From the NCBI RefSeq assembly GCF_003018115.1, contig NZ_CP027457.1: a DNA stretch of 64,000 bases; one strand, 5' to 3'. The notes below the pieces were generated by a model. The model had not been told where the DNA came from, did not search any database, and saw only the letters and a program-made list of their open reading frames with translations. Both the position numbers and the translations under genes were made by a program. This document shows positions 38,291 through 64,000 of the stretch, one piece after another (positions within the stretch are counted from its first letter, which is position 1; each line of letters opens with the position of its first letter). The stretch comes from Escherichia coli. Lineage in GTDB: Bacteria > Pseudomonadota > Gammaproteobacteria > Enterobacterales > Enterobacteriaceae.

Positions 38291-38668
38291 TCACTCCTGA
38301 CCAAAATTTTTCCACACTAATGCATGAGACTTTGATTTGTCACCCAGAAATTTACTTACATCTTGCCAAAGTAAAGAATTGCTATCGGTCGCAGTGACTA
38401 TTGCCTCTATAAGCCCTGTAGCTACAACTGTGGCCAATTCATCATCAAGCGAGACCATACCATCTTCGACATGTTTAAATATTTTTTCTCTTTCAATATC
38501 CCCCATTTCATAAAAATTTTTTACAATCGTTTTTCCAACCTGAGAGAACAACATAACCACCGGTGGCGTTTCTGGATGCCAGTATTCATTAGCTAATGAG
38601 ACTGTCTCAGACAAAACAGTGGAAAATGATGCCATTTTTTCTATATAACTAGCAATATATTGGTTCAT
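38291..38668 (-). CDS. Putative Rhs immunity protein (RhsI), family unassigned
   Basis: 125 aa acidic ORF whose ATG shares one base with the Rhs stop (TAATG); AT-rich like the Rhs CT. Confidence 0.7.
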   Translation of the reverse strand: MNQYIASYIEKMASFSTVLSETVSLANEYWHPETPPVVMLFSQVGKTIVKNFYEMGDIEREKIFKHVEDGMVSLDDELATVVATGLIEAIVTATDSNSLLWQDVSKFLGDKSKSHALVWKNFGQE

Positions 38669-41600: not shown

Positions 41601-43173
41601 GGGAGTCATAAAACCAGCGCGTAATGTTACCGTTGCGCGAGGTCTCTTCTGCCAGTCGGCCCTGACGGTCATATTTCCGGTTGCTGCGTAAACCATCCGG
41701 ATATGTCACTGAAGTCAGTTGCAACTGGCTGTTGTAACCATACCGTACCGTCCTGCCGTCCGGCAGTATCACTGAAGTCAGCTTTCCAGACGCCATATGC
41801 AGCCGGTACTCCGTCCGCCGCCCCGCCGCATCCGTCTGCGCCTTCAGCCTCCCCGCCTCATCATACTCGCTGCGGGTGATGCTCCCGTCCGCATGTTCCT
41901 TCTTCACCACACGCTTCAGGCCACCTTCGCCCTCCGTGTACAGCACCTCCCGCCGGTTCAGGCTGTCCGTGATGGTCACACGGTCCTGCCCGTACTCAAA
42001 GCGGTAGTCCAGCCCCTCCGGGTTGACCTGTTCTGTCACCCGACCGGTATCATCATACCGGTAGCGGCTCTCCGGCCTCCCTGCATAATGGTGCGCCACC
42101 ATCCGCCCGGCGTGCTGCACATCATAAGTAAACCCGCGCACCTGCGTCCCGCTGCGGTCATACACCGCCCGCAGTTCTCCGCTGGCCGTGTACGTGTAGC
42201 GCGCCAGCGGCGCAGTCGGCTGTTCATCCGGGTATGCCGGGTCGTGTGTCAGCCACACCGCCTCCAGCCGGATACCGTTATCGGCACCGTACTCTGTACC
42301 GGCGGGCAGCGTGTCGGGGAAAGCTGAAGAAAAGGAAGAAGAGGAAACAGAACGGGGACTGGCCGGGGAAGATAAGGAAGACTCGCGCTGTTTACGGAAG
42401 GCTTCCGCCCGCTGCGCCTGTGTGGTCAGCGCCAGGTGAAAACGGCGGCCCGCGCCGTCCGTCACCCCCGTCACCGCGCCCGCCACGTCACCCTCCGCCG
42501 CCCTGTGAAAGGCCAGCGTCCGACCAAAGCCATCCACCACGCCCGTCAGCACCCGGTATGCGGGCGGCTCCGGCGGCAGCACCTCGTCCGCCTCCGGCAC
42601 CCGCTCCGGCCAGCTGAGCACCAGCCACTGCCCGGTTGTGCTGACAGCCATCATATAGGTGTGTGGACTCAGACGGACCGCTTCCGGCAGCGCCCGCCAG
42701 AGCCGGGCCAGCGGGTGGCCTTTGTGTTGTTTCAGCACCCCACCCCTTGCCAGCCAGAGTGACTCGCTGCGGCTGTAGCTTATCTCGCCGGGAAACAGCG
42801 GCTCAAAGTGAATGCTCCTGCCGCCGTTGTCGTTGAGTATCAGTTCCCGCTCATGAATCTGTAAGCGGATATCAAAGGGGGCTTTCCAGCCGGGGCCAAA
42901 CACCCCCACCGGCGCGGGCGTCCTGGTCCGGTAACTGCTGTAGGCACGGGAAAGAATGAACGGCAGCGGGCCGGGCAGCGCAAGGTCCGTCTCGCCCGGC
43001 AGCACCTTCGCACCCAGTAGCGGGTTCACCGGGTTAGCATAGGTAATCCCTCCCGGACACACCGAGCAGGCCACTCCCGTCGGCGCACCTATCAGCACCC
43101 CCGCTGAACCCTGCACAATATCCAGTCCCTTGCGGGTCATATCACCCTGCCGCGCCGCCGGTTTTCCGCCCAT
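38668..43173 (-). CDS. rhs: Rhs-family polymorphic toxin: N-terminal PAAR-like region, YD-repeat core, variable C-terminal toxin domain
   Basis: 1501 aa; N-term [12 protein letters not shown]...[10 protein letters not shown]; many YD repeats; core ends [27 protein letters not shown]; ~245 aa CT encoded at 38671..39405. Confidence 0.9.
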
Positions 43174-43248
43174 GAATCAATTCCTTCTGCTTTTAATATG
43201 GTTTATCTGGTCACTGCACCAGTTCCGTTTTGATTTTTTGCGCCTGAC

Positions 43249-45390
43249 TCAAAATTGCCGCATATCCGGCATTCCGGGGGGTAAATCTTTCGGCACAGGC
43301 GCATCCGGTACAGGTTGTGTGGCACCACAGTTCCAGTTAATCACCGGCGCATCACCGTTCACATCCGACTCCCCTTCCAGATGAATGTGCGTACCATTAA
43401 GAAATATGCTTCCGTCCTTCGTCAGCACCAGCCTTGCCTTACCACAGCAGAGTTCAAGATGCTCACCGGCAGAATAAACTGCTGTTTGTCCGGTGTTTTC
43501 CTTCATCGTCTTGCCCACCGAGAAGGTGACGTTATTCCCTACATTGACGCTGTAGCCCATTCCCACCATCAGTGATTTATGCAGCCCTACCTGTGAGGAC
43601 TGCAACAACGCCACCGAGGTATTCATAATGCCGCCTACCGTCGTCTGATACGCCACACCCACCGTCAGCGCACGAATGATCCCCACCTTTTCAACCTGGT
43701 TTGATCCCACTTTGATAATCTGGTTACTGCCCACCGTTTCCACCTGGTTGACACCAACCGTCTGTATCTGATTAACGCCAATGTTCTGGATCTGGTTATT
43801 GGTAACGGTGATCGCCTGGTTGTTACCTATTTTTTCGGCATGGTTGTTTATCACATCAGTGGTGCGGTTATTCAGCACCTCGGTGTTCATGTTCTTCTGC
43901 GCGTGGATGTAGACCTGTTCTTTCCCTGTCGCATCGTCAAACTTCAGTTCATTAAACCCGCTGCCCTTATAGGTTTTCGAACGAATGGTCATCTGCGTCT
44001 TTGTTCCCGGCAGGCTGCCGGGTGTGCGGTTTTCCTGGTGGTAGGTGCGCCCCATAATGATCGGCTGGTCCGGATCGCCGTTGAGGAAGTCCACAATCAC
44101 CTCCTGACCCACACGCGGTATCGCCAGGTTACCAAACCCGGTGCCTGCCCACGCCTGTGCCACACGGATCCAGCATGAACTGTCCTGGTTTGACGGGTTA
44201 TAGCGGTCCCAGTTAAATTTCACCCGCACGCGACCATGTTCGTCGCAGAAGATTTCCTCGCCTGCCGGTCCCGTCACGACGGCGCTCTGCGGGCCATCCA
44301 CCAGCGGTTTCAGCAACGGCTGTGGTCGCCATGTTCTGTCTGCCGGTATTACCGCAAAATGGTTATCCAGCGTGGTGCCTGAACCCCTGCGTCCCGGTAC
44401 CGCCTGCGGCTGTTCGCCGTGAAGATCGCTCGCCACCACCTGCCATTCCCGGTTCAGGTTCGCCTGCGGATGCCCCGTCAGCACAATTCGCCGTCCCGGC
44501 CATATCTCCGGCGAACGGCTTGTTCCGCGCGCCACTTCTGCGTTGTTTCGCCAGCCATCCATCTGCCAGCGGGCAAAGTTCTGCCCGTGGGCACCCTTGA
44601 AACGTCCGGGGTAGTCATACACTTCATACTGTGTGCGCTGGTAATCCTGGTACTGGCCTTCCTGATCAAAACGCCCTGCCCAGCCGGGTCGTTTAAAGGT
44701 GTAGTCTTTGGTCACCACGGAAGAAGGGCGGATTTGTGCGCTGTAGCGAAACTGGCTGATGCAGAGGGTGCTTACCTCGGTACGGGTGTTCGGATTCCAG
44801 GGGATCTCAAAGGACTCCGGCAGATAACGCACGGTATCGCACAGGACCAGGCTCTGGTCGGTACTTTTTTGCGCGTGCTCCTCATAAAAGAAGATGCCTT
44901 CCTCCGCCGCCATCCGGCACAGGAAATCGTAATCAGTCTCACCGTACTGGACACAAAACTCACGGGAAGGATGCGGTTCACTGAACAGCGGACTCCACTC
45001 GGTCACCCCGTTTTCCTGCAATATCGTGCCGAGGATGCTTTTGATGTCCTCGTTCTGGAAGATACGGAAGTTCTGGCGCAGCCCTGTGCGCCACAGCGGC
45101 GGGCATACCTTCATGCTGTACAGCTTCTGGTTTTTGTCGTTCTCCCCCAGTTCAAACCAGGTCACCACACCTTTCACCCGGCGCTGTACGTCATCGCCCT
45201 GCCATATCGTCAGGTAGGCCATTTTGTCGAGGATCTGCTGGAATTCAAGGGAGAGAAACTGCTGGCTGACCAGAGAGAGAGCGAGGGAAAAAAGCGAAGA
45301 GAGTGACTGGTTCAGATGAAAGGAGACCACCGCAAAAGCATCCGGTGGCAGGCCGTCCACTTCCAGCGTGAAACGTAATCCGGTTGACAT
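43249..45390 (-). CDS. vgrG: Type VI secretion spike protein VgrG
   Basis: 713 aa; gp27/gp5-like VgrG; 75 bp upstream of rhs. Confidence 0.9.
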   Translation of the reverse strand: MSTGLRFTLEVDGLPPDAFAVVSFHLNQSLSSLFSLALSLVSQQFLSLEFQQILDKMAYLTIWQGDDVQRRVKGVVTWFELGENDKNQKLYSMKVCPPLWRTGLRQNFRIFQNEDIKSILGTILQENGVTEWSPLFSEPHPSREFCVQYGETDYDFLCRMAAEEGIFFYEEHAQKSTDQSLVLCDTVRYLPESFEIPWNPNTRTEVSTLCISQFRYSAQIRPSSVVTKDYTFKRPGWAGRFDQEGQYQDYQRTQYEVYDYPGRFKGAHGQNFARWQMDGWRNNAEVARGTSRSPEIWPGRRIVLTGHPQANLNREWQVVASDLHGEQPQAVPGRRGSGTTLDNHFAVIPADRTWRPQPLLKPLVDGPQSAVVTGPAGEEIFCDEHGRVRVKFNWDRYNPSNQDSSCWIRVAQAWAGTGFGNLAIPRVGQEVIVDFLNGDPDQPIIMGRTYHQENRTPGSLPGTKTQMTIRSKTYKGSGFNELKFDDATGKEQVYIHAQKNMNTEVLNNRTTDVINNHAEKIGNNQAITVTNNQIQNIGVNQIQTVGVNQVETVGSNQIIKVGSNQVEKVGIIRALTVGVAYQTTVGGIMNTSVALLQSSQVGLHKSLMVGMGYSVNVGNNVTFSVGKTMKENTGQTAVYSAGEHLELCCGKARLVLTKDGSIFLNGTHIHLEGESDVNGDAPVINWNCGATQPVPDAPVPKDLPPGMPDMRQF

Positions 45391-45549
45391 AGCAACCTCC
45401 GGGGTTAAGGAAAAACAGACAGTTCGCTGTTAAAGCGGCTGTGACAGTACAGTGTTACGCTTGCGTTCAGGCACGCTACCGCCGAAGTTTCCGGCAGCCG
45501 CCATCTCCCGTGAACGTAACCCCTTACTGACAACCTTTCTTTCTACGGC

Positions 45550-45592
45550 GTAATACAAAAACAGCATCCGGCCTGATAGCCGGATGCTGTTG
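45550..45592 (-). terminator. rho-independent terminator/attenuator after hcp
   Basis: Perfect 11-bp stem CAGCATCCGGC/GCCGGATGCTG with 6-nt loop, followed on the minus strand by TTTTTGTATT. Confidence 0.7.
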
Positions 45593-45599
45593 GCTTAAC

Positions 45600-46118
45600 T
45601 TATGCTTCCAGCGGTGCGCGCCAGTCGTCGGCACCGGAGGTGCCAGATTTGACGTGTTCCCATTCAATTTTGCGGTAGGCCAGTGAAACTTCGAGCAACT
45701 GGGTGAACTCGCGTTTCGCCGGGTCCTGGCAATGCGGCATATGCAGTTTCATATCGACAATCGTCGAATCAGTCAGGCGGGTAGTGAAATAATGCTCCTG
45801 TTTGCCTTCCACAGAGGTACGCCACCAGTGAAGTTCAGTGGTTGGCAGCATTTCGCCGGAGGCCAGTGCGTTGTACATCAGCGGAACCGCTTTGTTCAGC
45901 GCCACGGTAAAAATGAAAGGCTTGTGAGCACGCTGACCCGCAGGCTGACCGGACTGAGGATCGGTCGGGACAGTAACGTTATGCAGGAATTCCTGCACCA
46001 GCATCTCGTCTTCGTGCCCCTGCACATAGATGTTGCCGACAGAATCAGCGGTAAATGCACCTGCAGTAATATTTCCCTGGGTCTGACCAGTGATGGAGAT
46101 ATAACACGGTGTTGGCAT
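45600..46118 (-). CDS. hcp: Type VI secretion tube protein Hcp (TssD)
   Basis: 172 aa MPTPCYISITGQTQGNITAGAFTADSVGNIYVQGHEDEMLVQ. Confidence 0.9.
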   Translation of the reverse strand: MPTPCYISITGQTQGNITAGAFTADSVGNIYVQGHEDEMLVQEFLHNVTVPTDPQSGQPAGQRAHKPFIFTVALNKAVPLMYNALASGEMLPTTELHWWRTSVEGKQEHYFTTRLTDSTIVDMKLHMPHCQDPAKREFTQLLEVSLAYRKIEWEHVKSGTSGADDWRAPLEA

Positions 46119-47350: not shown

Positions 47351-47575
47351 ATGACGGCACACAAAAATATCTCCGGGACATACCACCTCTCTGTTGCAGA
47401 CATTCTGCAGGTGGTTTACCAGGTATGTTTCAGCCCGTCCGTTGAAATCAACCAGGATGGTGTGGCTGCGCTGATTACAACACTGGATCGCCGTATCAGT
47501 GATCTATTGGATGAGATTATCCATTTTTGTGAGTTTCAGCAGAGCGCGTCGCACTGGCAGCGCGTACTTCACTGA
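47351..47575 (+). other. 74-aa ORF paralogous to the N-terminal region of TssC (fragment or divergent duplicate)
   Basis: ...ALITTLDRRISDLLDEIIHFCEFQQSASHWQRV aligns to TssC ...SMIADIDERISRQMDVIIHAPAFQQVESFWRSL (~40-45% identity over ~60 aa). Confidence 0.45.
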
Positions 47576-52424: not shown

Positions 52425-53726
52425 ATGATAATCACGGAGCAGAATATGCCGGAAGAGAAACTACAGACGCTTTCATTGCAGGTCATTAACGGCAGTGAGC
52501 TGGAAAGCGGGCGGGCGGCGCGCTGTCTGTTCACACAGCAGGGAAATGTCGGCCATGGCCCCGAATGCCACTGGTCGGTACAGGATCGTCAGCAGAGCAT
52601 TCCGGCCCAGGCTTTTACCGTTATCCTGCACGATGGCACATTTTGTCTACGCCCGCAGACGGCACAACTGTGGCTGAATCAGGCAAAAGTCACAGCAACA
52701 TCAGACCTGATACAGTTGCGCCAGGGCGATGAGATCCAGATCGGACGGCTGATGGTGAGGGTTCATCTGAACCGGGGAGATATTCCCCATTACGATGAGG
52801 AAATGGCCACTCCCGAAACCATCGTTACCAATCGCGATATGCTCACGGATACCCTGCTATCAACGGAGGGTGCGCCACACTATCCGGGAATGACTCACCG
52901 GCACCAGCTTGCAGACACCGTGGTAAACGGTTTTTCTGCCGATCCACTCCAGGCACTTCAGTCCGAAAGCCTGATTACCACGGGCGATCCGCTTTCAGGC
53001 ATTGCGGCTGTCCGGCCATCGGCACCGCTGTCCGATCCGGCAAGTAATGGGGGGATCAATACTCCGTTTATGGATCTGCCGCCCATTTATGCCAGCCCCG
53101 GCGATCGTAATGACGACGTCTCTGCGGCAGAAATGGCGCAACGCCACCTTGCGGTCACCCCCTTACTGCGCGGTCTTGGCGGCTCGCTTACCATGAGCAA
53201 TTCCGACGATGCGGATGATTTTCTGGAGGAGGCCGGACGAACGTTACAGGCCGCAATAAAAGGTCTGCTCGATTTGCAGCAGCAGCGTAACAGCCTCTCA
53301 GACAAACATTTGCGCCCGCTGGAAGATAACCCGCTGCGCCTGAACATGGATTACGCCACCGCGCTCGACGTGATGTTTGCCGAAGGTAAAAGCCCGGTAC
53401 ATCTGGCGGCTCCCGCCGCCGTCAGTGAAAGCCTGCGCAATGTCCGCCACCACGAAGAAGCTAACCGGGCAGCAATTGTGGAGTCGCTTCGTGTCCTGCT
53501 GGATGCTTTCTCACCACAAAATCTGCTGCGCCGCTTTGTGCAGTACCGCCGCAGCCATGAACTGCGCCAGCCGCTGGATGATGCCGGAGCATGGCAAATG
53601 TACAGCCATTATTACGAAGAACTGGCCTCCGATCGCCAGCAGGGGTTTGAGATGCTGTTTAACGAGGTCTACGCCCAGGTCTATGACCGGGTGCTTCGTG
53701 AAAAACAGCGGGAGCCGGAAGCATGA
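52425..53726 (+). CDS. tagH: T6SS FHA-domain protein TagH (Fha)
   Basis: 433 aa; N-terminal FHA-like region (LSLQVINGSELESGRAARCLF...LHDGTFCLRP...NQAKV). Confidence 0.7.
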   Translation: MIITEQNMPEEKLQTLSLQVINGSELESGRAARCLFTQQGNVGHGPECHWSVQDRQQSIPAQAFTVILHDGTFCLRPQTAQLWLNQAKVTATSDLIQLRQGDEIQIGRLMVRVHLNRGDIPHYDEEMATPETIVTNRDMLTDTLLSTEGAPHYPGMTHRHQLADTVVNGFSADPLQALQSESLITTGDPLSGIAAVRPSAPLSDPASNGGINTPFMDLPPIYASPGDRNDDVSAAEMAQRHLAVTPLLRGLGGSLTMSNSDDADDFLEEAGRTLQAAIKGLLDLQQQRNSLSDKHLRPLEDNPLRLNMDYATALDVMFAEGKSPVHLAAPAAVSESLRNVRHHEEANRAAIVESLRVLLDAFSPQNLLRRFVQYRRSHELRQPLDDAGAWQMYSHYYEELASDRQQGFEMLFNEVYAQVYDRVLREKQREPEA

Positions 53727-54247
53727 ACAGGAAGGCGTTTCTGGCCTGCGTGCTGATGTGCGTCATATTAACCGGCTGCGAAACGGCGAAAAAAATCAGC
53801 GAGGTGATCAAAAACCCGGATATCCAGGTCGGGAGCCTGAAGGAGCAACCTTCGGAAATAACCGTCACCCTGCTGACTGAACCGGACACCAATACCAATG
53901 CGGAGGGTGAATCAGCCGCCGTGGATGTGCAACTGGTGTACCTGACTGACGACTCAAAATTGCAGGCAGCCGACTATGACCAGATAGCCAGTACGCCGCT
54001 ACCGGATGTGCTGGGTAAAAACTATATCGACCACCAGGATTTCAACCTGTTGCCGGACACCATCAAAACCCTGCCGCCGATAAAGCTGGATGAGAAAACG
54101 CAGTTTATTGGTGTCGTGGCCTATTTCTCCGATGACCAGGCCACTGAATGGAAACAAATCGAGACGGTGGAAGGAACCGGCCACCATTACCGCCTGCTGG
54201 TGCATGTACGTCAAAGCAGCATCGAAATGAAAAAAGAGGATGAATAA
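53723..54247 (+). CDS. tssJ: T6SS outer-membrane lipoprotein TssJ
   Basis: 174 aa; lipobox LTGC after signal peptide. Confidence 0.85.
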   Translation: MNRKAFLACVLMCVILTGCETAKKISEVIKNPDIQVGSLKEQPSEITVTLLTEPDTNTNAEGESAAVDVQLVYLTDDSKLQAADYDQIASTPLPDVLGKNYIDHQDFNLLPDTIKTLPPIKLDEKTQFIGVVAYFSDDQATEWKQIETVEGTGHHYRLLVHVRQSSIEMKKEDE

Positions 54248-55585: not shown

Positions 55586-56347
55586 ATGGATGAGGGGTCA
55601 CTGTCTCTGCCACCATTTACCGGATACGACGAAAAAAGCCTGCGCGACTACCATCTCGCGCTTCGTGGCAACAGCCTGAATCCGATGATCGACGCGGCGA
55701 CGCCGCTACTCGGTATGGTAATGCGCCTTTCCACCATGAACAGCCAGACGATGCCGGAGCATCTTTTTGCTCAGGTGGTGACAGATGTTCAGGCCGTGGA
55801 GCAACTGCTTCAGGAACAGGGCTACGAACCGGGCGTGATTATCTCGTTTCGCTACATCCTCTGCACGTTTATTGATGAAGCGGCGCTCGGTAACGGCTGG
55901 TCGAACAAGAACGAGTGGATCAAGCAGTCATTGCTGGTCCATTTCCACAACGAAGCCTGGGGTGGCGAGAAAGTTTTCATCCTGCTGGAGCGCCTGATCC
56001 GTGAACCCAAACGTTACCAGGATCTGCTGGAATTTCTCTGGCTCTGTTTTTCTCTGGGATTTCGCGGGCGCTACAAAGTGGCAGTACAGGATCAGGGGGA
56101 ATTTGAGCAGATCTACCGCCGTCTGTACCACGTTCTGCATAAACTGCGCGGCGATGCCCCTTTCCCGCTGTTACACCAGGACAAAAAAACCCAGGGCGGG
56201 CGTTATCAGCTCATCAGTCGCCTGACTGTTAAACATATTTTTTGTGGTGGCGTTGTCGTGCTGGCGTTGTTTTACCTGTTCTATCTGTTGCGGCTGGACA
56301 GCCAGACGCAGGACATCCTGCACCAGCTAAACAAATTACTTCGATAA
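55586..56347 (+). CDS. tssL: T6SS membrane complex protein TssL (DotU)
   Basis: 253 aa with single C-terminal TM helix (GGVVVLALFYLFYLL). Confidence 0.85.
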   Translation: MDEGSLSLPPFTGYDEKSLRDYHLALRGNSLNPMIDAATPLLGMVMRLSTMNSQTMPEHLFAQVVTDVQAVEQLLQEQGYEPGVIISFRYILCTFIDEAALGNGWSNKNEWIKQSLLVHFHNEAWGGEKVFILLERLIREPKRYQDLLEFLWLCFSLGFRGRYKVAVQDQGEFEQIYRRLYHVLHKLRGDAPFPLLHQDKKTQGGRYQLISRLTVKHIFCGGVVVLALFYLFYLLRLDSQTQDILHQLNKLLR

Positions 56348-56355
56348 GGACGTTT

Positions 56356-59127
56356 ATGATCCAGATTGATCTTCCCACGCTGGTAAAACGGCTGAACCTG
56401 TTCTCCCGCCAGGCGCTGGAGATGGCCGCCTCTGAATGTATGAGTCAGCAGGCTGCGGAAATTACCGTCAGCCATGTGCTTATTCAGATGCTCGCCATGC
56501 CACGCAGTGACCTGCGGGTTATTACCCGCCAGGGCGATATTGGCATGGAAGAGTTGCGCCAGGCGTTGACGGTAGAGAACTACACAACCGCCCGTTCTGC
56601 GGACAGCTACCCGGCGTTTTCCCCGATGCTGGTTGAGTGGCTTAAAGAGGGCTGGCTGCTGGCGTCGGCTGAGATGCAGCACAGCGAACTGCGCGGCGGC
56701 GTGTTGCTGCTGGCCTTGCTGCATTCGCCGCTGCGTTATATACCGCCTGCTGCCGCCCGGCTGTTGACCGGCATTAACCGTGACCGTCTGCAACAGGACT
56801 TTGTGCAGTGGACACAGGAGTCGGCGGAATCAGTCGTGCCGGATGCAGACGGTAAAGGCGCAGGCACACTGACGGACGGCTCTGACACCCTGCTTGCCCG
56901 CTACGCCAAAAACATGACCGCAGACGCCCGTAACGGCAGGCTAGACCCGGTACTGTGCCGCGACCACGAAATCGACCTGATGATCGACATTCTCTGCCGC
57001 CGCCGTAAAAACAACCCGGTGGTGGTGGGCGAAGCAGGCGTGGGTAAAAGCGCGCTGATTGAAGGGCTGGCGCTGCGCATCGTGGCAGGCCAGGTGCCGG
57101 ACAAACTGAAAAACACCGATATCATGACCCTTGACCTGGGCGCATTGCAGGCCGGGGCATCGGTGAAGGGTGAGTTTGAAAAACGCTTCAAGGGGCTGAT
57201 GGCGGAGGTCATTTCCTCTCCGGTGCCGGTCATTCTGTTTATCGACGAAGCGCATACCCTGATTGGCGCGGGCAACCAGCAGGGCGGGCTGGATATCTCC
57301 AACCTGCTGAAACCGGCGCTGGCGCGTGGCGAACTGAAAACCATCGCCGCCACCACCTGGAGCGAGTACAAAAAATACTTCGAGAAAGACGCCGCCCTGT
57401 CGCGCCGCTTCCAGTTAGTGAAGGTCAGCGAACCCAACGCTGCCGAAGCCACCATTATTCTGCGTGGTCTGTCGGCGGTCTATGAACGGTCTCACGGCGT
57501 GCTGATTGACGATGATGCCTTGCAGGCCGCAGCAACGCTGAGCGAACGTTATCTCTCCGGGCGTCAGTTACCGGACAAAGCGATTGATGTGCTGGATACC
57601 GCCTGCGCCCGTGTGGCCATCAACCTGTCGTCGCCGCCGAAGCAAATCTCGGCGCTGACCACTCTGAGCCACCAGCAGGAGGCGGAAATTCGCCAGCTTG
57701 AGCGCGAGCTTCGCATCGGACTGCGTACCGACACATCACGGATGACCGAGGTGCTGGTGCAGTATGATGAAACGCTGACGGCGCTGGATGAACTGGAAGC
57801 GGCCTGGCACCAGCAGCAGACGCTGGTCCGGGAGATTATCGCGCTGCGCCAGCAGTTACTGGGCGTGGCAGAGGACGATGCGGCGCCGTTGCCGGACGCA
57901 GATACCGTGGAGGATACGCAGCCAGAGTCAGAGTCAGAGTCAGAACAGGATAATACCGGTGCCGTACCGGCTGATGAGGCCGACAGAGAACAGCCGGAAG
58001 AGACCGCTGAAACAGTTTCCCCGGTACAGCGGCTGGCCCAGCTCACTGCCGAACTGGACGCCCTGCATAACGACCGGTTGCTGGTCTCCCCGCACGTCGA
58101 TAAAAAACAGATTGCGGCGGTGATTGCCGAATGGACCGGCGTGCCGCTCAACCGCCTGTCGCAGAATGAAATGTCGGTCATCACCGACCTGCCGAAATGG
58201 CTGGGCGACACCATCAAAGGCCAGGACCTGGCGATTGCCAGCCTGCATAAGTATCTACTGACCGCACGCGCCGACCTGCGTCGTCCGGGACGCCCGCTCG
58301 GTGCGTTCCTGCTGGCTGGCCCCAGCGGTGTGGGTAAAACCGAAACCGTCCTGCAACTGGCAGAGCTGCTCTACGGCGGTCGCCAGTACCTGACCACCAT
58401 CAATATGTCCGAATTCCAGGAGAAACACACCGTCTCGCGGCTGATTGGTTCGCCTCCGGGCTACGTTGGCTACGGTGAAGGCGGCGTACTGACCGAAGCG
58501 ATTCGCCAGAAACCCTACTCGGTAGTACTGCTCGATGAAGTGGAAAAAGCGCACCCGGATGTGCTCAACCTGTTCTACCAGGCGTTCGATAAGGGCGAAA
58601 TGGCAGACGGTGAAGGCCGCCTGATTGACTGCAAAAATATCGTCTTCTTCCTGACGTCCAACCTCGGCTACCAGGTAATAGTCGAGCATGCCGATGACCC
58701 GGAAACCATGCAGGAAGTACTGTATCCGGTGCTGGCCGACTTCTTCAAACCTGCCCTGCTGGCGCGTATGGAAGTGGTGCCGTATCTGCCGCTGTCGAAA
58801 GAGACGCTCGCCACCATTATCGCCGGGAAACTGGCCCGTCTGGATAACGTGCTGCGCAGTCGCTTTGGTGCAGAAGTGGCCATTGAACCGGAAGTGACGG
58901 ACGAAATCATGAGCCGCGTCACCCGCGCGGAAAACGGCGCGAGGATGCTGGAATCGGTCATCGATGGCGACATGCTACCGCCGCTCTCGCTGCAGCTGTT
59001 GCAGAAAATGGCGGCTAACACGGCGATTGCCCGGATTCGGTTGTCGGCAGTGGACGGCGCATTTACGGCAGACGTGGAAGATGCTCAGAACGACGAGTCC
59101 GTCACAAAGGATGAAACGGTTTTATGA
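56356..59127 (+). CDS. clpV: T6SS AAA+ ATPase ClpV (TssH)
   Basis: Two AAA modules: Walker A GEAGVGKSA and GPSGVGKTE; start set at MIQIDLPTLVKRLN (in-frame internal ATG of ORF 56242). Confidence 0.9.
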   Translation: MIQIDLPTLVKRLNLFSRQALEMAASECMSQQAAEITVSHVLIQMLAMPRSDLRVITRQGDIGMEELRQALTVENYTTARSADSYPAFSPMLVEWLKEGWLLASAEMQHSELRGGVLLLALLHSPLRYIPPAAARLLTGINRDRLQQDFVQWTQESAESVVPDADGKGAGTLTDGSDTLLARYAKNMTADARNGRLDPVLCRDHEIDLMIDILCRRRKNNPVVVGEAGVGKSALIEGLALRIVAGQVPDKLKNTDIMTLDLGALQAGASVKGEFEKRFKGLMAEVISSPVPVILFIDEAHTLIGAGNQQGGLDISNLLKPALARGELKTIAATTWSEYKKYFEKDAALSRRFQLVKVSEPNAAEATIILRGLSAVYERSHGVLIDDDALQAAATLSERYLSGRQLPDKAIDVLDTACARVAINLSSPPKQISALTTLSHQQEAEIRQLERELRIGLRTDTSRMTEVLVQYDETLTALDELEAAWHQQQTLVREIIALRQQLLGVAEDDAAPLPDADTVEDTQPESESESEQDNTGAVPADEADREQPEETAETVSPVQRLAQLTAELDALHNDRLLVSPHVDKKQIAAVIAEWTGVPLNRLSQNEMSVITDLPKWLGDTIKGQDLAIASLHKYLLTARADLRRPGRPLGAFLLAGPSGVGKTETVLQLAELLYGGRQYLTTINMSEFQEKHTVSRLIGSPPGYVGYGEGGVLTEAIRQKPYSVVLLDEVEKAHPDVLNLFYQAFDKGEMADGEGRLIDCKNIVFFLTSNLGYQVIVEHADDPETMQEVLYPVLADFFKPALLARMEVVPYLPLSKETLATIIAGKLARLDNVLRSRFGAEVAIEPEVTDEIMSRVTRAENGARMLESVIDGDMLPPLSLQLLQKMAANTAIARIRLSAVDGAFTADVEDAQNDESVTKDETVL

Positions 59128-59867
59128 GCAGGTTGCGCGTTTTCCGGCAGACAGGATGGTTTATCGCGGGCCTGATGACGGGCTTACCCGCCACTGCCGC
59201 GCCCGCAGAAGCATCGTCAATGGCCAGTGTGGCGGTCGCCGTCGCCACCACGACCCCGCCGGATGCGACAGCCACGTTACAGGCCATGCAGTCCTGTCGG
59301 CGGGAGTCCGCGGCGCTGGAGCGGCTTGACTGCTATGACCGCCTGCTGGCACCGCTGTCCCCGTCAGGGTTTGACGGGGCGCTGGTCAAAGCCGGTTTTG
59401 TGGGCGAGGCCTGGACCCGCGCCACAGAGCAGGAAAAACGCCGCGAGGGCAACACCACAGAACTGCTGGTGACGCAGGTGCCGGGGGAGCGCCCGACGGT
59501 GGTGATAACCACCCCGGCTATCGGCCATGTTCCGCCGCGCCCGGTGCTGATGTTCAGTTGCGTGGACAATATCACCCGGATGCAGGTGGCGCTGATGCAC
59601 CCTCTGGATGTCCATGATATCGCCGTCACTCTGAATGCCGACAGCCGGGCATTGCGCAGCCACTGGTTTGTGCGCGAGAACGGCACCCTGCTGGAGTCCA
59701 GCCGGGGGCTGTCCGGGATTGATGAAATTAAGCAACTGTTCGGCGCAAAAACGCTGACAGTGGATACCGGCGCAGATAACGCCGCAGGAAAGCTGACCTT
59801 TAACATTGACGGGCTGGCAAGGGCGATTGCCCCCCTGCGCGATGCCTGCCACTGGGCGGGAGAATAA
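59124..59867 (+). CDS. T6SS-associated periplasmic protein (VasI/TagO-like), function unknown
   Basis: 247 aa with signal peptide; overlaps clpV stop and precedes tssA. Confidence 0.5.
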   Translation: MSRLRVFRQTGWFIAGLMTGLPATAAPAEASSMASVAVAVATTTPPDATATLQAMQSCRRESAALERLDCYDRLLAPLSPSGFDGALVKAGFVGEAWTRATEQEKRREGNTTELLVTQVPGERPTVVITTPAIGHVPPRPVLMFSCVDNITRMQVALMHPLDVHDIAVTLNADSRALRSHWFVRENGTLLESSRGLSGIDEIKQLFGAKTLTVDTGADNAAGKLTFNIDGLARAIAPLRDACHWAGE

Positions 59868-59871
59868 AAAT

Positions 59872-61284
59872 ATGGCAATGGACTTACGCGATCCGAATGT
59901 CTGGATATCGCACCTGCTGGAAAACCTGCCAGAAGAAAAACTGGCATCGGCGCTGAAAGATGACAACCCGAACTGGGAGTATATCGACGGCGAAATCGTC
60001 AAACTGGGATCTCTGGCCCACAGTCAACTGGATATCCCGGAACTCCAGCGCCGGGGGCTGGTCATTCTGGCTTCGGAGAGTAAGGACTTTCGTCTGCTGG
60101 CGCATCTGCTGAGAACCCTGCAACACGCCGGTGATCCTCATCTCGCATTGCGCCTGCTGGCGCTGTATGTGGAGCATTACTGGTCGGTGGCTGCGCCGCA
60201 GAATATGGCACATAAAAAACGCTTTGCCAGCCAGGTCATTAAACGCTTTGAAACAGGTATTGAAGGCTTTTCACAGAACGCCGCCACAGCGCAGCGCGAC
60301 GCGCTGTCAGGGGAACTGGCGAAACTGGCGCAGTGCTGGCAGTCACATAACGCCCCGGAACTGGCACTGGCTACCGATGATCTTTTTGCCCTGTACCAGC
60401 GTGCGTTTAATCGTGCGGCACCGGCTCCTGCCCCCACTCCGGCGGCCTCCGATAGTTCACCACAGACCACCGCCACGTCTGAAAGCGGCGTGACGCAACC
60501 CAGTGCTCCGACTCCCCAAATCGCCATCGACAGTCACGACGACAAAGCCTGGCGCGACACGCTGTTAAAAGTGGCGGCTATTTTATGTGAACGCCAGCCG
60601 GACTCGCCGCAGGGCTATCGCCTGCGCCGCCATGCCCTGTGGCAATCCATCACCAGTACACCCCAGGCGGAAAGCGATGGACGTACCCCATTGGCTGCGG
60701 TCTCTGCCGATATGGTGGCGGATTACCAGTCCCGGCTTGCCAGCGCGGATATGGCGCTGTGGCAGCAGGTTGAGAAAAGCGTATTGCTGGCTCCTTACTG
60801 GCTGGACGGTCACTGTCTTTCTGCACAGACGGCACTGCGTCTGGGTTACAAACAGGTGGCAGACACCATCCGCGATGAGGTCATCCGCTTCCTTGAGCGT
60901 CTGCCCCAGCTTACCGGGCTGCTGTTTAATGACCGCACACCGTTTCTCAGTGAGCAGACGAAACAATGGCTGGCTGCTTCGCCCGACGGCAAAGTTGCAC
61001 CGGTTGCGCAAATCGGTGAGGAATCGCAGGCAGCCAGAGCCTGTTTTGCTGGGCAGGGTCTGGAGGCGGCGCTGCGATATCTGGACATGCTACCCGAAGG
61101 CGATCCCCGCGATCAGTTTCACCGCCAGTACCTTGCCGCACAGTTGACGGAGGAGGCGGGGCTGATACAGCTTGCGCAGCAACAGTACCGGATGTTGTTG
61201 ATGATAGGGAGTCAGATGATGGTGTCTGACTGGGAGCCATCATTACTTACGCAGCTTGAACAAAAATTCACGGCAGAACAATAA
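59872..61284 (+). CDS. tssA: T6SS protein TssA (ImpA N-terminal domain)
   Basis: Start MAMDLRDPNVWISHLLENLPEEKLASAL with GGGAG RBS; ~470 aa. Confidence 0.8.
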   Translation: MAMDLRDPNVWISHLLENLPEEKLASALKDDNPNWEYIDGEIVKLGSLAHSQLDIPELQRRGLVILASESKDFRLLAHLLRTLQHAGDPHLALRLLALYVEHYWSVAAPQNMAHKKRFASQVIKRFETGIEGFSQNAATAQRDALSGELAKLAQCWQSHNAPELALATDDLFALYQRAFNRAAPAPAPTPAASDSSPQTTATSESGVTQPSAPTPQIAIDSHDDKAWRDTLLKVAAILCERQPDSPQGYRLRRHALWQSITSTPQAESDGRTPLAAVSADMVADYQSRLASADMALWQQVEKSVLLAPYWLDGHCLSAQTALRLGYKQVADTIRDEVIRFLERLPQLTGLLFNDRTPFLSEQTKQWLAASPDGKVAPVAQIGEESQAARACFAGQGLEAALRYLDMLPEGDPRDQFHRQYLAAQLTEEAGLIQLAQQQYRMLLMIGSQMMVSDWEPSLLTQLEQKFTAEQ

Positions 61285-61302: not shown

Positions 61303-64000
61303 GTGTTCAGATTACCAACACCCCGACTACTCAGCGGACTCAAATCAGCCCTACGCCCGGCGATGCCCCGGTTTAAAGTCTCCGCTTTCTGGCTGCTGAT
61401 ACTGGCGTGGATTTTTCTGCTGGTATGGATCTGGTGGAAAGGCTCGACGTGGACGCTGTATGAAGAACAGTGGCTCAAACCACTGGCGAACCGCTGGCTG
61501 GCAACGGCGGCATGGGGGATTATCGCCCTGGTGTGGCTTACCGTCCGGGTGATGAAGCGCCTGCAACAACTTGAAAAAATGCAAAAGCAGCAGCGCGAGG
61601 AGGCCATTGATCCGCTCAGTGTGGAGCTGAACGCCCAGCAGCGTTACCTTGACCGCTGGCTGCTGCGCCTGCAACGCCATCTCGACAACCGCCGTTTCCT
61701 GTGGCAGTTGCCGTGGTATATGGTCATCGGCCCGGCGGGCAGTGGCAAAACGACACTGCTGGGCGAGGGGTTTCCGTCAGACATTATTTATGCCCCGGAA
61801 GGCGCGCGCGGCACAGAACAACGCCTGTACCTTACGCCCCATGTCGGTAAACAGGCGGTGATCTTTGATATCGACGGCACACTCTGCGCTCCCGCTGATG
61901 CGGATATCCTGCATCGCCGTCTGTGGGAACATGCCCTCGGCTGGCTGAAAGAAAAGCGCGCGCGCCAGCCGCTGAACGGGATTATTCTGACACTCGATTT
62001 ACCCGATCTGCTTACCGCAGACAAACGCCGCCGCGAGCATCTGTTACAGACGCTGCGCAGCCGCTTGCAGGATATACGCCAGCATCTTCACTGCCAGTTA
62101 CCGGTTTACGTGGTACTCACCCGGCTTGATTTATTGCAGGGTTTTGCCGCCCTGTTCCAGTCACTGAACAGACAGGATCGCGATGCGATTCTGGGCGTCA
62201 CGTTCACCCGCCGCGCCCATGAAAATGATGACTGGCGAACAGAGTTGAATGCTTTCTGGCAGACATGGGTGGATCGAATGAACCTAGCGTTGCCGGATCT
62301 GATGGTCGCTCAGACTCACACCCGCGCGTCTTTATTTAGTTTTTCCCGCCAGATGCAGGGAAGCCGTGAACCGCTGGTGTCACTGCTTGAGGGTCTACTT
62401 GATGGCGAAAATATGAACGTGATGCTGCGTGGTGTCTATCTCACCTCTTCGCTTCAGCGTGGACAGATGGATGATATATTCACCCAGTCTGCCGCCCGCC
62501 AGTACCGGCTGGGCAATAACCCACTGGCGTCCTGGCCTCTGGTGGACACCGCGCCTTATTTCACCCGCAGCTTGTTCCCGCAGGCATTACTCGCAGAGCC
62601 TAATCTGGCAACGGAGAGCCGCGCCTGGCTGATGCGTTCCCGTCGCCGCCTGACGGTTTTCTCTACCACAGGAGGCGTGGCGGCACTGCTGCTCATCACC
62701 GGCTGGCATCACTATTACAACGGTAACTATCAGTCCGGCATCACCGTGCTTAAGCAGGCCAAAGCCTTTATGGATGTGCCGCCTCCACAGGGGGAAGATG
62801 ACTACGGCAACCTGCAACTGCCGCTGCTGAACCCGGTACGCGATGCCACACTGGCCTATGGCGACTGGGGCGACCGCAGCCGTCTGGCCGATATGGGACT
62901 GTACCAGGGACGACGTATCGGGCCTTATGTGGAACAGACCTATCTGCAACTGCTGGAGCAACGTTACCTGCCCTCGCTGTTTAACGGGCTGGTTAAAGCG
63001 ATGAATGCCGCGCCGCCGGAGAGTGAAGAAAAACTCGCGGTGCTGCGCGTGATGCGAATGCTGGAGGACAAAAGCGGACGTAACAATGAGGTGGTGAAGC
63101 AGTATATGGCAAAACGCTGGAGCGAAAAGTTCCACGGCCAGCGCGATATCCAGGCACAACTGATGTCCCATCTTGACTACGCGCTGGCTCATACTGACTG
63201 GCACGCAGAGCGTCAGGCGGGCGACGGTGACGCCATCAGCCGCTGGACGCCATATGACAAGCCCGTGGTATCAGCACAGAAAGAACTGAGCAAACTGCCT
63301 GTCTACCAGCGGGTTTACCAGAGCCTGAAAACGCGGGCGCTGGGCGTTCTTCCTGCCGACCTCAATCTGCGTGACCAGGTAGGGCCAACCTTTGACCAGG
63401 TGTTTACATCTGCCGATGACAACAAACTGGTTGTTCCACAGTTTCTTACCCGTTACGGCCTGCAAAGCTATTTTGTAAAACAGCGCGATGAACTGGTTGA
63501 ACTGACGGCGATGGATTCCTGGGTACTTAACCTTACCCGCAGCGTGAAATACAGTGACGCCGACCGCGCGGAAATCCAGCGCCAGCTCACCGAGCAGTAT
63601 ATCAGCGACTACACCGCCACCTGGCGGGCCGGGATGGACAATCTGAATATCCGCAATTTTGAGTCCATCGGACAACTGACCGGGGCGCTGGAGCAGGTTA
63701 TCAGCGGCGACCAGCCTTTGCAGCGGGCGCTGACCGTGCTGCGTGACAACACACAGCCAGGCGTCTTTTCTGAAAAACTCTCTGCCAAAGAACGGGATGA
63801 GGCCCTGGCAGAGCCGGACTACCAGTTACTCACCCGTCTCGGGCATGAGTTCGCCCCGGAAAACAGTACCCTGGCAGTACAGAAAGACAAAGAAAGCACG
63901 ATGCAGGCAGTATATCAGCAACTCACCGAGTTGCACCGCTACCTGCTGGCAATCCAGAACGCGCCTGTACCAGGGAAATCGGCGCTGAAAGCCGTGCAGT
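61303..64000 (+). CDS. tssM: T6SS membrane complex protein TssM (IcmF), N-terminal ~900 aa; partial, runs off window end
   Basis: GTG start VFRLPTPRLL; TM helices then Walker A GPAGSGKTT; open frame to 64000, not in ORF track because no stop in window. Confidence 0.85.
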   Translation, partial: MFRLPTPRLLSGLKSALRPAMPRFKVSAFWLLILAWIFLLVWIWWKGSTWTLYEEQWLKPLANRWLATAAWGIIALVWLTVRVMKRLQQLEKMQKQQREEAIDPLSVELNAQQRYLDRWLLRLQRHLDNRRFLWQLPWYMVIGPAGSGKTTLLGEGFPSDIIYAPEGARGTEQRLYLTPHVGKQAVIFDIDGTLCAPADADILHRRLWEHALGWLKEKRARQPLNGIILTLDLPDLLTADKRRREHLLQTLRSRLQDIRQHLHCQLPVYVVLTRLDLLQGFAALFQSLNRQDRDAILGVTFTRRAHENDDWRTELNAFWQTWVDRMNLALPDLMVAQTHTRASLFSFSRQMQGSREPLVSLLEGLLDGENMNVMLRGVYLTSSLQRGQMDDIFTQSAARQYRLGNNPLASWPLVDTAPYFTRSLFPQALLAEPNLATESRAWLMRSRRRLTVFSTTGGVAALLLITGWHHYYNGNYQSGITVLKQAKAFMDVPPPQGEDDYGNLQLPLLNPVRDATLAYGDWGDRSRLADMGLYQGRRIGPYVEQTYLQLLEQRYLPSLFNGLVKAMNAAPPESEEKLAVLRVMRMLEDKSGRNNEVVKQYMAKRWSEKFHGQRDIQAQLMSHLDYALAHTDWHAERQAGDGDAISRWTPYDKPVVSAQKELSKLPVYQRVYQSLKTRALGVLPADLNLRDQVGPTFDQVFTSADDNKLVVPQFLTRYGLQSYFVKQRDELVELTAMDSWVLNLTRSVKYSDADRAEIQRQLTEQYISDYTATWRAGMDNLNIRNFESIGQLTGALEQVISGDQPLQRALTVLRDNTQPGVFSEKLSAKERDEALAEPDYQLLTRLGHEFAPENSTLAVQKDKESTMQAVYQQLTELHRYLLAIQNAPVPGKSALKAVQ

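What the first reader, a model, noticed from the sequence alone, without database searches (positions are those of the whole stretch)
59124..59867. Signal-peptide protein of unknown function encoded between clpV and tssA
A 247-aa predicted periplasmic protein is translationally coupled to clpV (overlapping stop/start) and immediately precedes tssA. Its placement inside the core operon implies a role in apparatus assembly, but I cannot assign it confidently to a named T6SS accessory family.
Basis: inference. Interest (0 to 1): 0.3.

Follow-up and report, generated by a model that had tools for sequence, protein, structure and literature searches.

The report
Known T6SS accessory protein VasI/TagO
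The gene between clpV and tssA is real and encodes VasI (also called TagO), an already named and routinely annotated periplasmic accessory protein of Vibrio cholerae-type type VI secretion systems, so the finding is ordinary, although how VasI works is still unknown.

Summary
The ORF 59124-59867 (+, 247 aa) is confirmed. Its ATG overlaps the clpV stop (ATGA), and tssA starts 4 nt after its stop. It can be assigned to a family. It matches Pfam PF11319 "VasI" (E 3.7e-53, full length) and NCBIfam TIGR03360 "VasI" (259 bits, cutoff 124). It differs at one residue from a RefSeq protein annotated vasI.

The window is the E. coli aspV "T6SS-2" island. The clpV-vasI-tssA junction occurs in 2848 of 5426 complete E. 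coli genomes.

The family has a signal peptide, four invariant cysteines and an RLxC[YF]D motif. In all 80 loci examined it sits directly upstream of tssA-tssM.

The V. cholerae member, VCA0118, has been deleted experimentally. Hcp and VgrG-1 secretion persist, but amoeba virulence is lost and bacterial killing drops. VasI is therefore not an essential assembly part.

My best reading is a stoichiometric periplasmic accessory of the membrane complex, possibly bracing it in clusters that lack a peptidoglycan-binding module. That last step is inferred. Novelty: already known. Interest: low.

The parts
59124..59867 (+). vasI (tagO) coding sequence, 247 aa including the stop codon span
   Evidence: ORF. 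PF11319 E 3.7e-53. TIGR03360 258.8 bits against a cutoff of 124.2. 246/247 identical to the L001 CDS annotated vasI, WP_000088863.1.
59124..59127 (+). ATGA overlap of the vasI start with the clpV stop (translational coupling)
   Evidence: Read directly from the sequence. The same junction occurs in Escherichia and Citrobacter loci, where the ClpV match ends where the VasI match starts.
59124..59207 (+). Predicted Sec signal peptide, aa 1-28, with probable cleavage A-P-A|E
   Evidence: Hydropathy and charge pattern. The conserved A-x-A|[EQND]T position in close homologues. Hydrophobic N-termini in 80 of 81 loci. The model shows a helix at residues 3-19. The cleavage site is inferred; no predictor was available.
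59208..59264 (+). Variable Ala/Thr/Pro-rich linker, aa 29-47
   Evidence: Length-variable and poorly conserved in alignment A1. pLDDT 51-75 and no secondary structure in the model.
59265..59348 (+). N-terminal helical hairpin, aa 48-75, carrying C58, R67, C70 and D72 (RLxC[YF]D motif)
   Evidence: Helices 48-58 and 64-75. C58, R67, C70 and D72 are invariant in 79 diverse sequences.
59295..59855 (+). Match to the VasI domain (PF11319), aa 58-244
   Evidence: Profile positions 2-184 of 184 are matched.
59466..59804 (+). Beta-sandwich core, aa 115-227, IalB-like / MotY-like fold
56356..59127 (+). clpV/tssH, the upstream gene; intact here (923 aa)
   Evidence: ORF. Annotated tssH in L001. Length and lack of internal stops checked.
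59872..61284 (+). tssA (ImpA_N plus VasJ-type C-terminal domain), the invariant downstream neighbour
   Evidence: TIGR03362 E 1.6e-150. tssA follows vasI in 80 of 80 loci that have downstream sequence.
61393..64000 (+). tssM, N-terminal 869 codons; runs off the window end
   Evidence: The translation shows the Walker A motif and TssM-like sequence. The position corresponds to tssM in L001. tssM follows tssA in every locus that has sequence there.
55586..56347 (+). tssL, short DotU form with no peptidoglycan-binding extension
   Evidence: Only the Pfam DotU domain, residues 33-234 of 253. TssL ORFs are 237-305 aa in 73 VasI-linked loci.

Best explanation
The gene is vasI (tagO), the E. coli T6SS-2 (aspV island) member of the VasI family whose V. 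cholerae representative is VCA0118.

Shown:
- It is co-oriented with clpV and tssA and overlaps the clpV stop.
- It carries an N-terminal Sec-type signal, a variable linker, a helical hairpin and a beta-sandwich.
- It has four invariant cysteines.

Inferred:
- It is exported, cleaved near A28|E29, and oxidised to two disulfides. It stays in the periplasm as a soluble protein, because it has no lipobox and no TM segment after the signal.
- It acts as a stoichiometric, non-essential accessory of the envelope-spanning TssJ-TssL-TssM complex. It raises the efficiency of productive firing into target cells and is not required for tube export. This rests on the V. cholerae deletion phenotype and on copy numbers.
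- More speculatively (about 0.2), its IalB/MotY-like sandwich forms a periplasmic brace or collar. This would tie the complex to the cell envelope in this class of T6SS, which has no peptidoglycan-binding module of its own.

Approximate sub-confidences: identity 0.98; periplasmic soluble protein 0.85; accessory of the membrane complex that improves delivery 0.55; envelope brace 0.2.
For: Identity:
- PF11319 E 3.7e-53, full length.
- TIGR03360 equivalog, 258.8 bits against a cutoff of 124.2.
- RefSeq annotates the gene vasI. The junction region occurs in 2848 of 5426 complete E. coli genomes. The protein differs at one residue from WP_000088863.1.

Export:
- Signal-like N-terminus.
- C58, C70, C146 and C242 are invariant across 79 sequences of 24-86% identity.

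Link to the machine:
- vasI sits directly upstream of tssA-tssM in 80 of 80 loci. The median distance from the vasI stop to the TssA match is 11 nt. The linkage holds where the rest of the cluster is rearranged (L003).

Phenotype:
- Deleting VCA0118 keeps Hcp and VgrG-1 secretion, abolishes amoeba virulence and lowers E. coli killing to about the level of a clpV deletion (PMC3166118).

Stoichiometry in V. cholerae, copies per cell (supplement of PMC6565705):
- VasI about 800-1200.
- TssL about 1100-1290.
- TssJ about 1500-1630.
- TssM about 2100-2290.
- PAAR about 140-200.
- VasI is also stable after translation arrest.

Fold:
- Model pLDDT 86.3.
- MotY-N domains pack head-to-tail and wedge between FlgI and FlgT (bioRxiv 10.64898/2025.12.04.692373).

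No peptidoglycan anchor in these clusters:
- TssL is the short form in the window and in 73 loci.
- No OmpA-like domain appeared among the families listed for 60 non-core ORFs from 17 loci.
- The literature singles out V. cholerae as lacking a T6SS peptidoglycan-binding domain (PMC8253398).
Against: - No experiment on the E. coli protein was found. The phenotype is transferred from a distant family member, and the V. cholerae sequence was not among the proteins I retrieved.
- No binding partner is shown.
- A distance-matrix (mirror-tree) comparison across 62 loci did not single out TssM or TssJ. All r values were 0.76-0.93, and TssJ had the lowest partial r.
- The fold matches are at 9-12% identity with no sequence-level link to IalB. 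They show shape, not function, and IalB's own molecular role is unknown.
- The Pfam listing showed 25 of 35 families, so a weak OmpA-like hit could be hidden.
- VasI has no recognisable peptidoglycan-binding domain itself.
Confidence: 0.55

Rival explanations
1. VasI is a transient periplasmic biogenesis factor. It might be a chaperone or adaptor that helps TssM/TssJ cross the peptidoglycan, or that recruits a housekeeping wall hydrolase. On this view it is not a resident part of the finished machine.
For: It is periplasmic and tightly linked to tssA-tssM. It is non-essential for secretion but needed for full activity. Other T6SSs recruit wall-degrading enzymes during membrane-complex assembly (stated in PMC8253398).
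Against: Its copy number equals that of membrane-complex subunits, and it persists after translation arrest. This fits a structural partner better than a catalytic or transient helper. No enzyme-like fold or motif was found.
Confidence: 0.2
2. VasI is an exported effector, adhesin or translocation enhancer that acts outside the producer cell. This is the proposal of the authors of the V. cholerae deletion study.
For: The VCA0118 deletion keeps Hcp and VgrG-1 secretion but loses amoeba virulence and part of the actin cross-linking and bacterial killing (PMC3166118). The fold resembles IalB, an invasion-associated envelope protein.
Against: - A Sec signal peptide and four invariant cysteines point to the periplasm. 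As background knowledge, T6SS substrates are loaded in the cytoplasm without signal peptides.
- The gene is fixed next to tssA-tssM, not next to vgrG, hcp, PAAR or immunity genes.
- Sequence conservation and synteny look like a machine part, not a variable effector.
- It affects killing of both bacteria and amoebae, which argues against a target-specific toxin.
Confidence: 0.1
3. VasI is a periplasmic sensor or regulatory input. For example, it could sense envelope state and feed into the TagH/Fha post-translational pathway or into VasH-type transcription control.
For: In many lineages it lies next to a regulator: vasH in L002, L005 and L082, and a 265-aa HTH_8 protein in Yersinia- and Proteus-type clusters. 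The E. coli cluster carries tagH.
Against: It has no transmembrane segment or known signalling domain, so it could not signal across the inner membrane alone. Hcp expression is unchanged in the V. cholerae deletion. In E. coli it is retained although vasH is absent.
Confidence: 0.07
4. It is an anti-phage defence protein of the 'VasI-like' SDIC4B kind that happens to lie in a T6SS island.
For: [quoted passage not shown]
Against: That study states SDIC4B proteins share no detectable BLAST identity with T6SS VasI and are not found in T6SS clusters, being associated with BrxR instead. The window protein is a full-length sequence-level VasI, sits inside the operon, and has no PADLOC hit.
Confidence: 0.02

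Closest known systems
VasI / TagO (V. cholerae VCA0118; Pfam PF11319, formerly DUF3121; NCBIfam TIGR03360)
   Same: Full-length profile match. Same size class. Signal peptide and four cysteines. Same position between clpV (or vasH) and tssA-tssM in a V. cholerae-type gene order.
   Different: The E. coli cluster lacks vasH, so vasI overlaps clpV directly. It has a longer Ala/Thr/Pro linker after the signal peptide than most members. No experiment on the E. coli protein was found.
IalB, invasion-associated locus B protein of Bartonella (PDB 3DTD; Pfam PF06776)
   Different: Only 10-12% identity. None of 79 VasI sequences hits the IalB profile. IalB lacks the VasI N-terminal disulfide hairpin motif and is not T6SS-linked. 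Its mechanism is unknown.
MotY of the Vibrio polar flagellar T ring (PDB 8Z5N chain A)
   Different: MotY has a second domain, MotY-C, which is an OmpA-like peptidoglycan-binding domain according to my own background knowledge. VasI has no second domain. There is no sequence similarity. That the match lies in the N-terminal domain of MotY is inferred, not reported by the tool.
T6SS peptidoglycan-anchoring modules (TagL, TagN, TagP, 'evolved' TssL)
   Same: Accessory, periplasm-facing components thought to hold the membrane complex in place. VasI-type clusters are the ones that lack such a module. VasI is therefore a candidate functional substitute; this is an inference.
   Different: VasI has no OmpA/Pal/MotB-like domain and no membrane anchor. 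Peptidoglycan binding has not been shown or predicted.
SDIC4B 'VasI-like' anti-phage proteins of Serratia and enterobacterial defence islands
   Same: Reported by HHpred to share the VasI fold.
   Different: No BLAST-level identity to T6SS VasI. Encoded next to BrxR in defence islands, not in T6SS clusters. The window protein has no PADLOC hit.

Membership tests
VasI / TagO (PF11319, TIGR03360) | Profile HMM score above the curated cut-off over the whole model | tested here: met
   PF11319: 180.3 bits against a cutoff of 26.5, profile positions 2-184 of 184. TIGR03360 equivalog: 258.8 bits against 124.2, positions 1-187 of 187.
VasI / TagO (PF11319, TIGR03360) | Encoded inside a T6SS cluster, immediately upstream of tssA (vasJ) and tssM (vasK) | tested here: met
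   Window gene order is tssL-clpV-vasI-tssA-tssM. The same adjacency holds in 80 of 80 homologous loci.
VasI / TagO (PF11319, TIGR03360) | N-terminal export signal (VCA0118 is described as 'predicted to be exported') | tested here: met
   Charged n-region, hydrophobic core and an A-x-A site. Hydrophobic N-termini in 80 of 81 loci. This is a heuristic; no SignalP was available.
VasI / TagO (PF11319, TIGR03360) | Family-invariant residues: four Cys, the RLxC[YF]D motif, W181, G195, W244 | tested here: met
   All are present in the window protein. They are invariant in the 79-sequence alignment A2.
VasI / TagO (PF11319, TIGR03360) | Deletion phenotype: Hcp secretion retained, target killing reduced | not testable with these tools
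   Known only for V. cholerae VCA0118 (PMC3166118).
IalB family (PF06776) | Sequence-profile match to IalB | tested here: not met
   No IalB hit for the window protein at E up to 1, or for any of 79 VasI sequences at E up to 10.
IalB family (PF06776) | IalB-like beta-sandwich fold | tested here: met
MotY (flagellar T-ring protein) | C-terminal OmpA/MotB-like peptidoglycan-binding domain | tested here: not met
   The only Pfam domain is VasI. Nothing follows residue 247.
T6SS peptidoglycan-binding accessories (TagL/TagN/TagP/evolved TssL) | OmpA/Pal/MotB-type peptidoglycan-binding domain | tested here: not met
   No such Pfam or NCBIfam hit.
TssJ-type outer-membrane lipoprotein | Lipobox with Cys at +1 after the signal peptide | tested here: not met
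   There is no cysteine before residue 58. The real tssJ is at 53723-54247.
Known anti-phage defence proteins (PADLOC-DB v2) | Match to a defence-system profile | tested here: not met
   No families at E up to 1. SDIC4 post-dates this library, so that subtype could not be tested by profile.

The most novel reading that the evidence does not exclude
VasI is the missing envelope anchor of V. cholerae-type (i1) T6SSs. On this reading it is a MotY/IalB-like periplasmic collar, present in roughly one copy per TssL. It braces the TssJLM complex against the wall or outer membrane in the one large class of T6SS that has no peptidoglycan-binding module. Without it the machine still fires Hcp into the medium but cannot deliver enough force or positional stability to penetrate targets. 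It would follow that IalB-family 'invasion' proteins are also braces for envelope machines.
Probability: 0.15. Interest if true: 0.55.

Novelty: already known. Interest (0 to 1): 0.15.

Why it matters
As a finding it matters little. The gene is a routinely annotated member of a family defined more than a decade ago, present in about half of complete E. coli genomes.

The residual interest is that VasI/TagO is one of the few conserved T6SS cluster genes with no mechanism. A 2023 structural review of the T6SS does not mention it at all.

Four observations collected here make a concrete, testable hypothesis about how wall-anchor-less T6SSs are stabilised:
- invariant linkage to tssA-tssM;
- copy numbers like those of the membrane complex;
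- an IalB/MotY-like fold;
- no peptidoglycan-binding module in any VasI-type cluster examined.

Tried and rejected
- PDB sequence searches with the protein and with a 79-sequence profile found nothing.
- The AlphaFold-database fold libraries were not available. The spare fold search went to viral structures and returned only uncharacterised phage proteins and one phage IalB.
- The 79-sequence alignment was too diverse for the search for related loci. A closer 17-sequence alignment worked, but its pattern biases the 77 loci towards Enterobacterales, Pasteurellaceae and Orbaceae.
- Pfam scans of all 79 family members gave no second family and no IalB link. PADLOC gave nothing.
- A mirror-tree test for a co-evolving partner across 62 loci was not discriminating.
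- I looked for the V. cholerae VasI peptides from the proteomics paper among the retrieved proteins so as to align the two directly. None were present.
- My guess at which flanking ORFs are the four DcrB-family hits was wrong.
- I did not use the second structure-prediction job for a VasI-TssM, VasI-TssJ or VasI-TagA fusion. The tool returns neither coordinates nor inter-domain error, so an interface could not have been judged.
- A Tat signal was considered and rejected. S-R-L-R is not a twin arginine and is not conserved.
- The alternative start at M33 was rejected because the signal-like N-terminus is conserved and RefSeq uses M1.
Full report
**Observation.** The start ATG (59124-59126) overlaps the clpV TGA (59125-59127) as ATGA. 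The stop TAA (59865-59867) lies 4 nt before the tssA ATG at 59872. The only Shine-Dalgarno-like element (AAGGA, 59107-59111) is 12 nt from the ATG. Re-initiation coupled to clpV termination is therefore plausible (read from the sequence; inference). No +-strand promoter-like site was found in the region scanned, and no +-strand terminator-like site lies between clpV, vasI and the start of tssA; three +-strand terminator-like hits fall inside tssA, and overall counts are at shuffle level. The locus is GC-rich (vasI 63.8% against 53% for the window), so long spurious ORFs occur in other frames. Four of them (81-212 aa) hit no Pfam family.

**What it is.** The protein matches Pfam PF11319 'VasI' with E 3.7e-53 over profile positions 2-184 of 184. 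It matches NCBIfam TIGR03360 'type VI secretion system-associated protein VasI' at 258.8 bits against a cut-off of 124.2. VasI and TagO are two names for the same gene (database names; PMC7575072).

The window is E. coli. A 1.4-kb probe spanning the clpV end, vasI and the tssA start is found in 2848 of 5426 complete E. coli genomes, and RefSeq labels the gene vasI. The window protein differs at one residue, S35 for G35 in the variable linker, from WP_000088863.1.

Neighbouring genes are tssB, tssC, tssE, tssF, tssG, tagH, tssJ, tssK, tssL, clpV, vasI, tssA and tssM. This is the V. cholerae vas gene order without vasH (compare). In a near-identical strain the island ends at tRNA-Asp/dnaQ. It corresponds to the aspV-associated E. 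coli 'T6SS-2' of the literature.

**Family anatomy.**
- The family is small: 316 clusters at 50% identity among 1.84 billion representatives.
- Seventy-nine full-length members of 24-86% identity all match only VasI in Pfam.
- Invariant residues are C58, R67, C70, D72, C146, W181, G195, C242 and W244. R107, R152, R194 and R239 are nearly invariant.
- All sampled N-termini have a hydrophobic, signal-like segment. Across 81 loci the only exception is Yersinia pestis, where the N-terminus appears lost.
- In close relatives a conserved A-x-A|[EQND]T site aligns with A26-P27-A28|E29. I infer cleavage there, with no lipobox and no twin-arginine motif.
- Four invariant cysteines in an exported protein suggest two periplasmic disulfides (inference).

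**Structure.** With the 79-sequence alignment, AlphaFold2 gives mean pLDDT 86.3 and pTM 0.68. The model has these parts:
- a signal helix, residues 3-19;
- a disordered linker, 20-47;
- a helical hairpin, 48-75, bearing C58, C70 and the RLxC[YF]D motif;
- a low-confidence loop, 76-94;
- a helix, 95-105;
- a beta-sandwich, 115-227, with pLDDT above 95;
- short C-terminal helices with C242.

No solved structure matches by sequence. By fold, the best matches are:

In that flagellar structure the MotY N-terminal domains pack head-to-tail and wedge between FlgI and FlgT to stabilise the P ring. IalB is a signal-peptide envelope protein needed for erythrocyte invasion, with no known mechanism. These are resemblances of shape at about 10% identity. 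Membership of IalB was tested by profile and not met.

**Genomic linkage.** Three distant members sit directly upstream of tssA (ImpA_N plus VasJ domains) and tssM. In one of them vasI is the first gene of a vasI-tssA-tssM unit divergent from tssB.

In 77 species-level genomes, tssA follows vasI in every locus that has downstream sequence (80 of 80 counting the earlier loci). The median distance from the vasI stop to the TssA match is 11 nt, and tssM follows tssA.

The upstream neighbour varies:
- clpV directly, in Escherichia, Citrobacter and relatives;
- vasH, in L002, L005 and L082;
- a 265-aa protein with only a Fis-type HTH, in Yersinia, Serratia, Photorhabdus, Proteus, Providencia and Morganella.

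TagA/VasL (ImpA_N, one predicted TM helix, VasL domain) follows tssM in 12 of 17 loci sampled.

**What is known experimentally.** In V. cholerae V52, an in-frame deletion of VCA0118 leaves Hcp expression, Hcp secretion and VgrG-1 secretion at wild-type level. It abolishes virulence to Dictyostelium, weakens actin cross-linking in macrophages, and lowers E. coli killing to roughly the level of a clpV deletion. The authors suggested an effector or adhesin (PMC3166118).

Targeted proteomics in V. cholerae 2740-80 gives these copies per cell (supplement of PMC6565705):
- VasI: about 1200 and about 790 (two peptides);
- TssL: about 1100-1290;
- TssJ: about 1500-1630;
- TssM: about 2100-2290;
- TssA: about 770-800;
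- PAAR: about 140-200.

VasI is also stable after translation arrest. A 2024 preprint still calls the function 'poorly understood'. A 2023 T6SS structure review never mentions VasI or TagO. I found no experiment on the E. coli protein.

**Most likely mechanism.** The steps shown are family identity, operon position, domain layout and conservation. The steps inferred are:
- Sec export, cleavage and disulfide formation;
- residence in the periplasm as a soluble protein;
- action as a stoichiometric, non-essential accessory of the TssJLM envelope complex.

The accessory role fits several facts. VasI is the only exported product of the invariant vasI-tssA-tssM block other than TssM's own periplasmic domain. 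Its copy number matches the membrane-complex subunits. Its loss affects delivery into both bacterial and eukaryotic targets without stopping tube export.

The more specific idea is that VasI braces the complex in the envelope. It rests on four points:
- The MotY/IalB-like fold.
- My finding that TssL is the short DotU form in the window and in all 73 VasI-linked loci.
- No OmpA-like domain among the families listed for 60 non-core ORFs from 17 loci (only 25 of 35 families were displayed).

I put this specific reading at about 0.15-0.2.

**Rivals.**
- A transient biogenesis helper (0.2) is not excluded, but fits the copy numbers less well.
- The effector/adhesin proposal (0.1) conflicts with the Sec signal, the cysteines, and fixed synteny with structural genes, not with vgrG or immunity genes.
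- A sensor role (0.07) lacks any transmembrane or signalling element, and Hcp expression is unchanged in the mutant.
- The anti-phage 'VasI-like' SDIC4B proteins share only fold, lie outside T6SS clusters, and are a different family.

**Verdict.** The gene is an already known, routinely annotated T6SS accessory gene, so novelty is 'already known' and interest is low (0.15). What remains open is the mechanism of the family.

Noticed in passing
L047 9986-10612 (Yersinia pestis NCTC5923), compared with L049 (Y. similis): The Y. pestis vasI ORF begins MDDGITPPVAEKEE... and lacks the hydrophobic signal-like N-terminus that Y. similis (MPAMNTWLLISSLLFSGS...) and 80 of 81 loci have. This is probably an N-terminal disruption that would keep the protein in the cytoplasm.
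   Followed up: partly
L047 9133-9930, and the same position in L038, L041, L049, L060, L063, L065, L077: In Yersinia, Serratia, Photorhabdus, Proteus, Providencia and Morganella clusters, a gene of about 265 aa sits between clpV and vasI, where V. cholerae has vasH. It has only a C-terminal Fis-type HTH (PF02954) and no sigma-54 AAA+ domain.
   Followed up: partly
window 57901-58017 (ClpV aa 516-554): ClpV carries an acidic low-complexity insert (DTVEDTQPESESESEQDNTGAVPADEADREQPEETAETV). The window gene is intact (923 aa). The near-identical strain XH990 has a shorter tssH annotated as a pseudogene with an internal stop, and a frameshifted vasL.
   Followed up: partly
window 47351-47575 (+), between tssB and tssC: A 74-aa ORF annotated 'hypothetical protein' in RefSeq gives a weak hit (E 0.0026, below cut-off) to the first 33 positions of the VipB/TssC N-terminal domain. 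It may be a remnant duplication of the tssC 5' end.
   Followed up: partly
L006 and L007: Short contigs (3.4 and 6.4 kb) binned as 'Bacillota bacterium' and 'Collinsella sp.' MAGs carry clpV-vasI-tssA at 94-98% protein identity to E. coli. This is almost certainly Escherichia contamination of those bins.
   Followed up: no
proteins P0016, P0018, P0019, P0040, P0048, P0049, P0050, P0080, P0110: Cluster representatives, nearly all singletons and mostly from E. coli assemblies, join a near-identical VasI segment to IcmF_C, IcmF-related, VasL or VasJ domains. They are probably deletions, frameshifts or misassemblies within the island, not natural fusions.
   Followed up: no
17 VasI-type loci, non-core ORFs (alignment A4): Four of 60 flanking ORFs belong to the DcrB family (best E 9.7e-47). 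Single ORFs carry Glucosaminidase, Amidase_3, PAAR and 'Immunity protein 22' domains, which is likely effector/immunity cargo. I did not resolve which ORFs are the DcrB ones.
   Followed up: partly
L016 15901-17241 and equivalents downstream of tssM: TagA/VasL proteins have a single predicted TM helix (about residues 235-260) between the cytoplasmic ImpA_N domain and the VasL domain. This would place the VasL domain in the periplasm, making it a further possible partner for VasI.
   Followed up: partly
window 38668-46118 (- strand): Divergent from tssB lie hcp (45600-46118), vgrG (43249-45390) and a 1501-aa Rhs core protein (38668-43173), followed by a small ORF (38291-38668). This is the effector arm of the island. 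A related strain has two Rhs core genes here.
   Followed up: no
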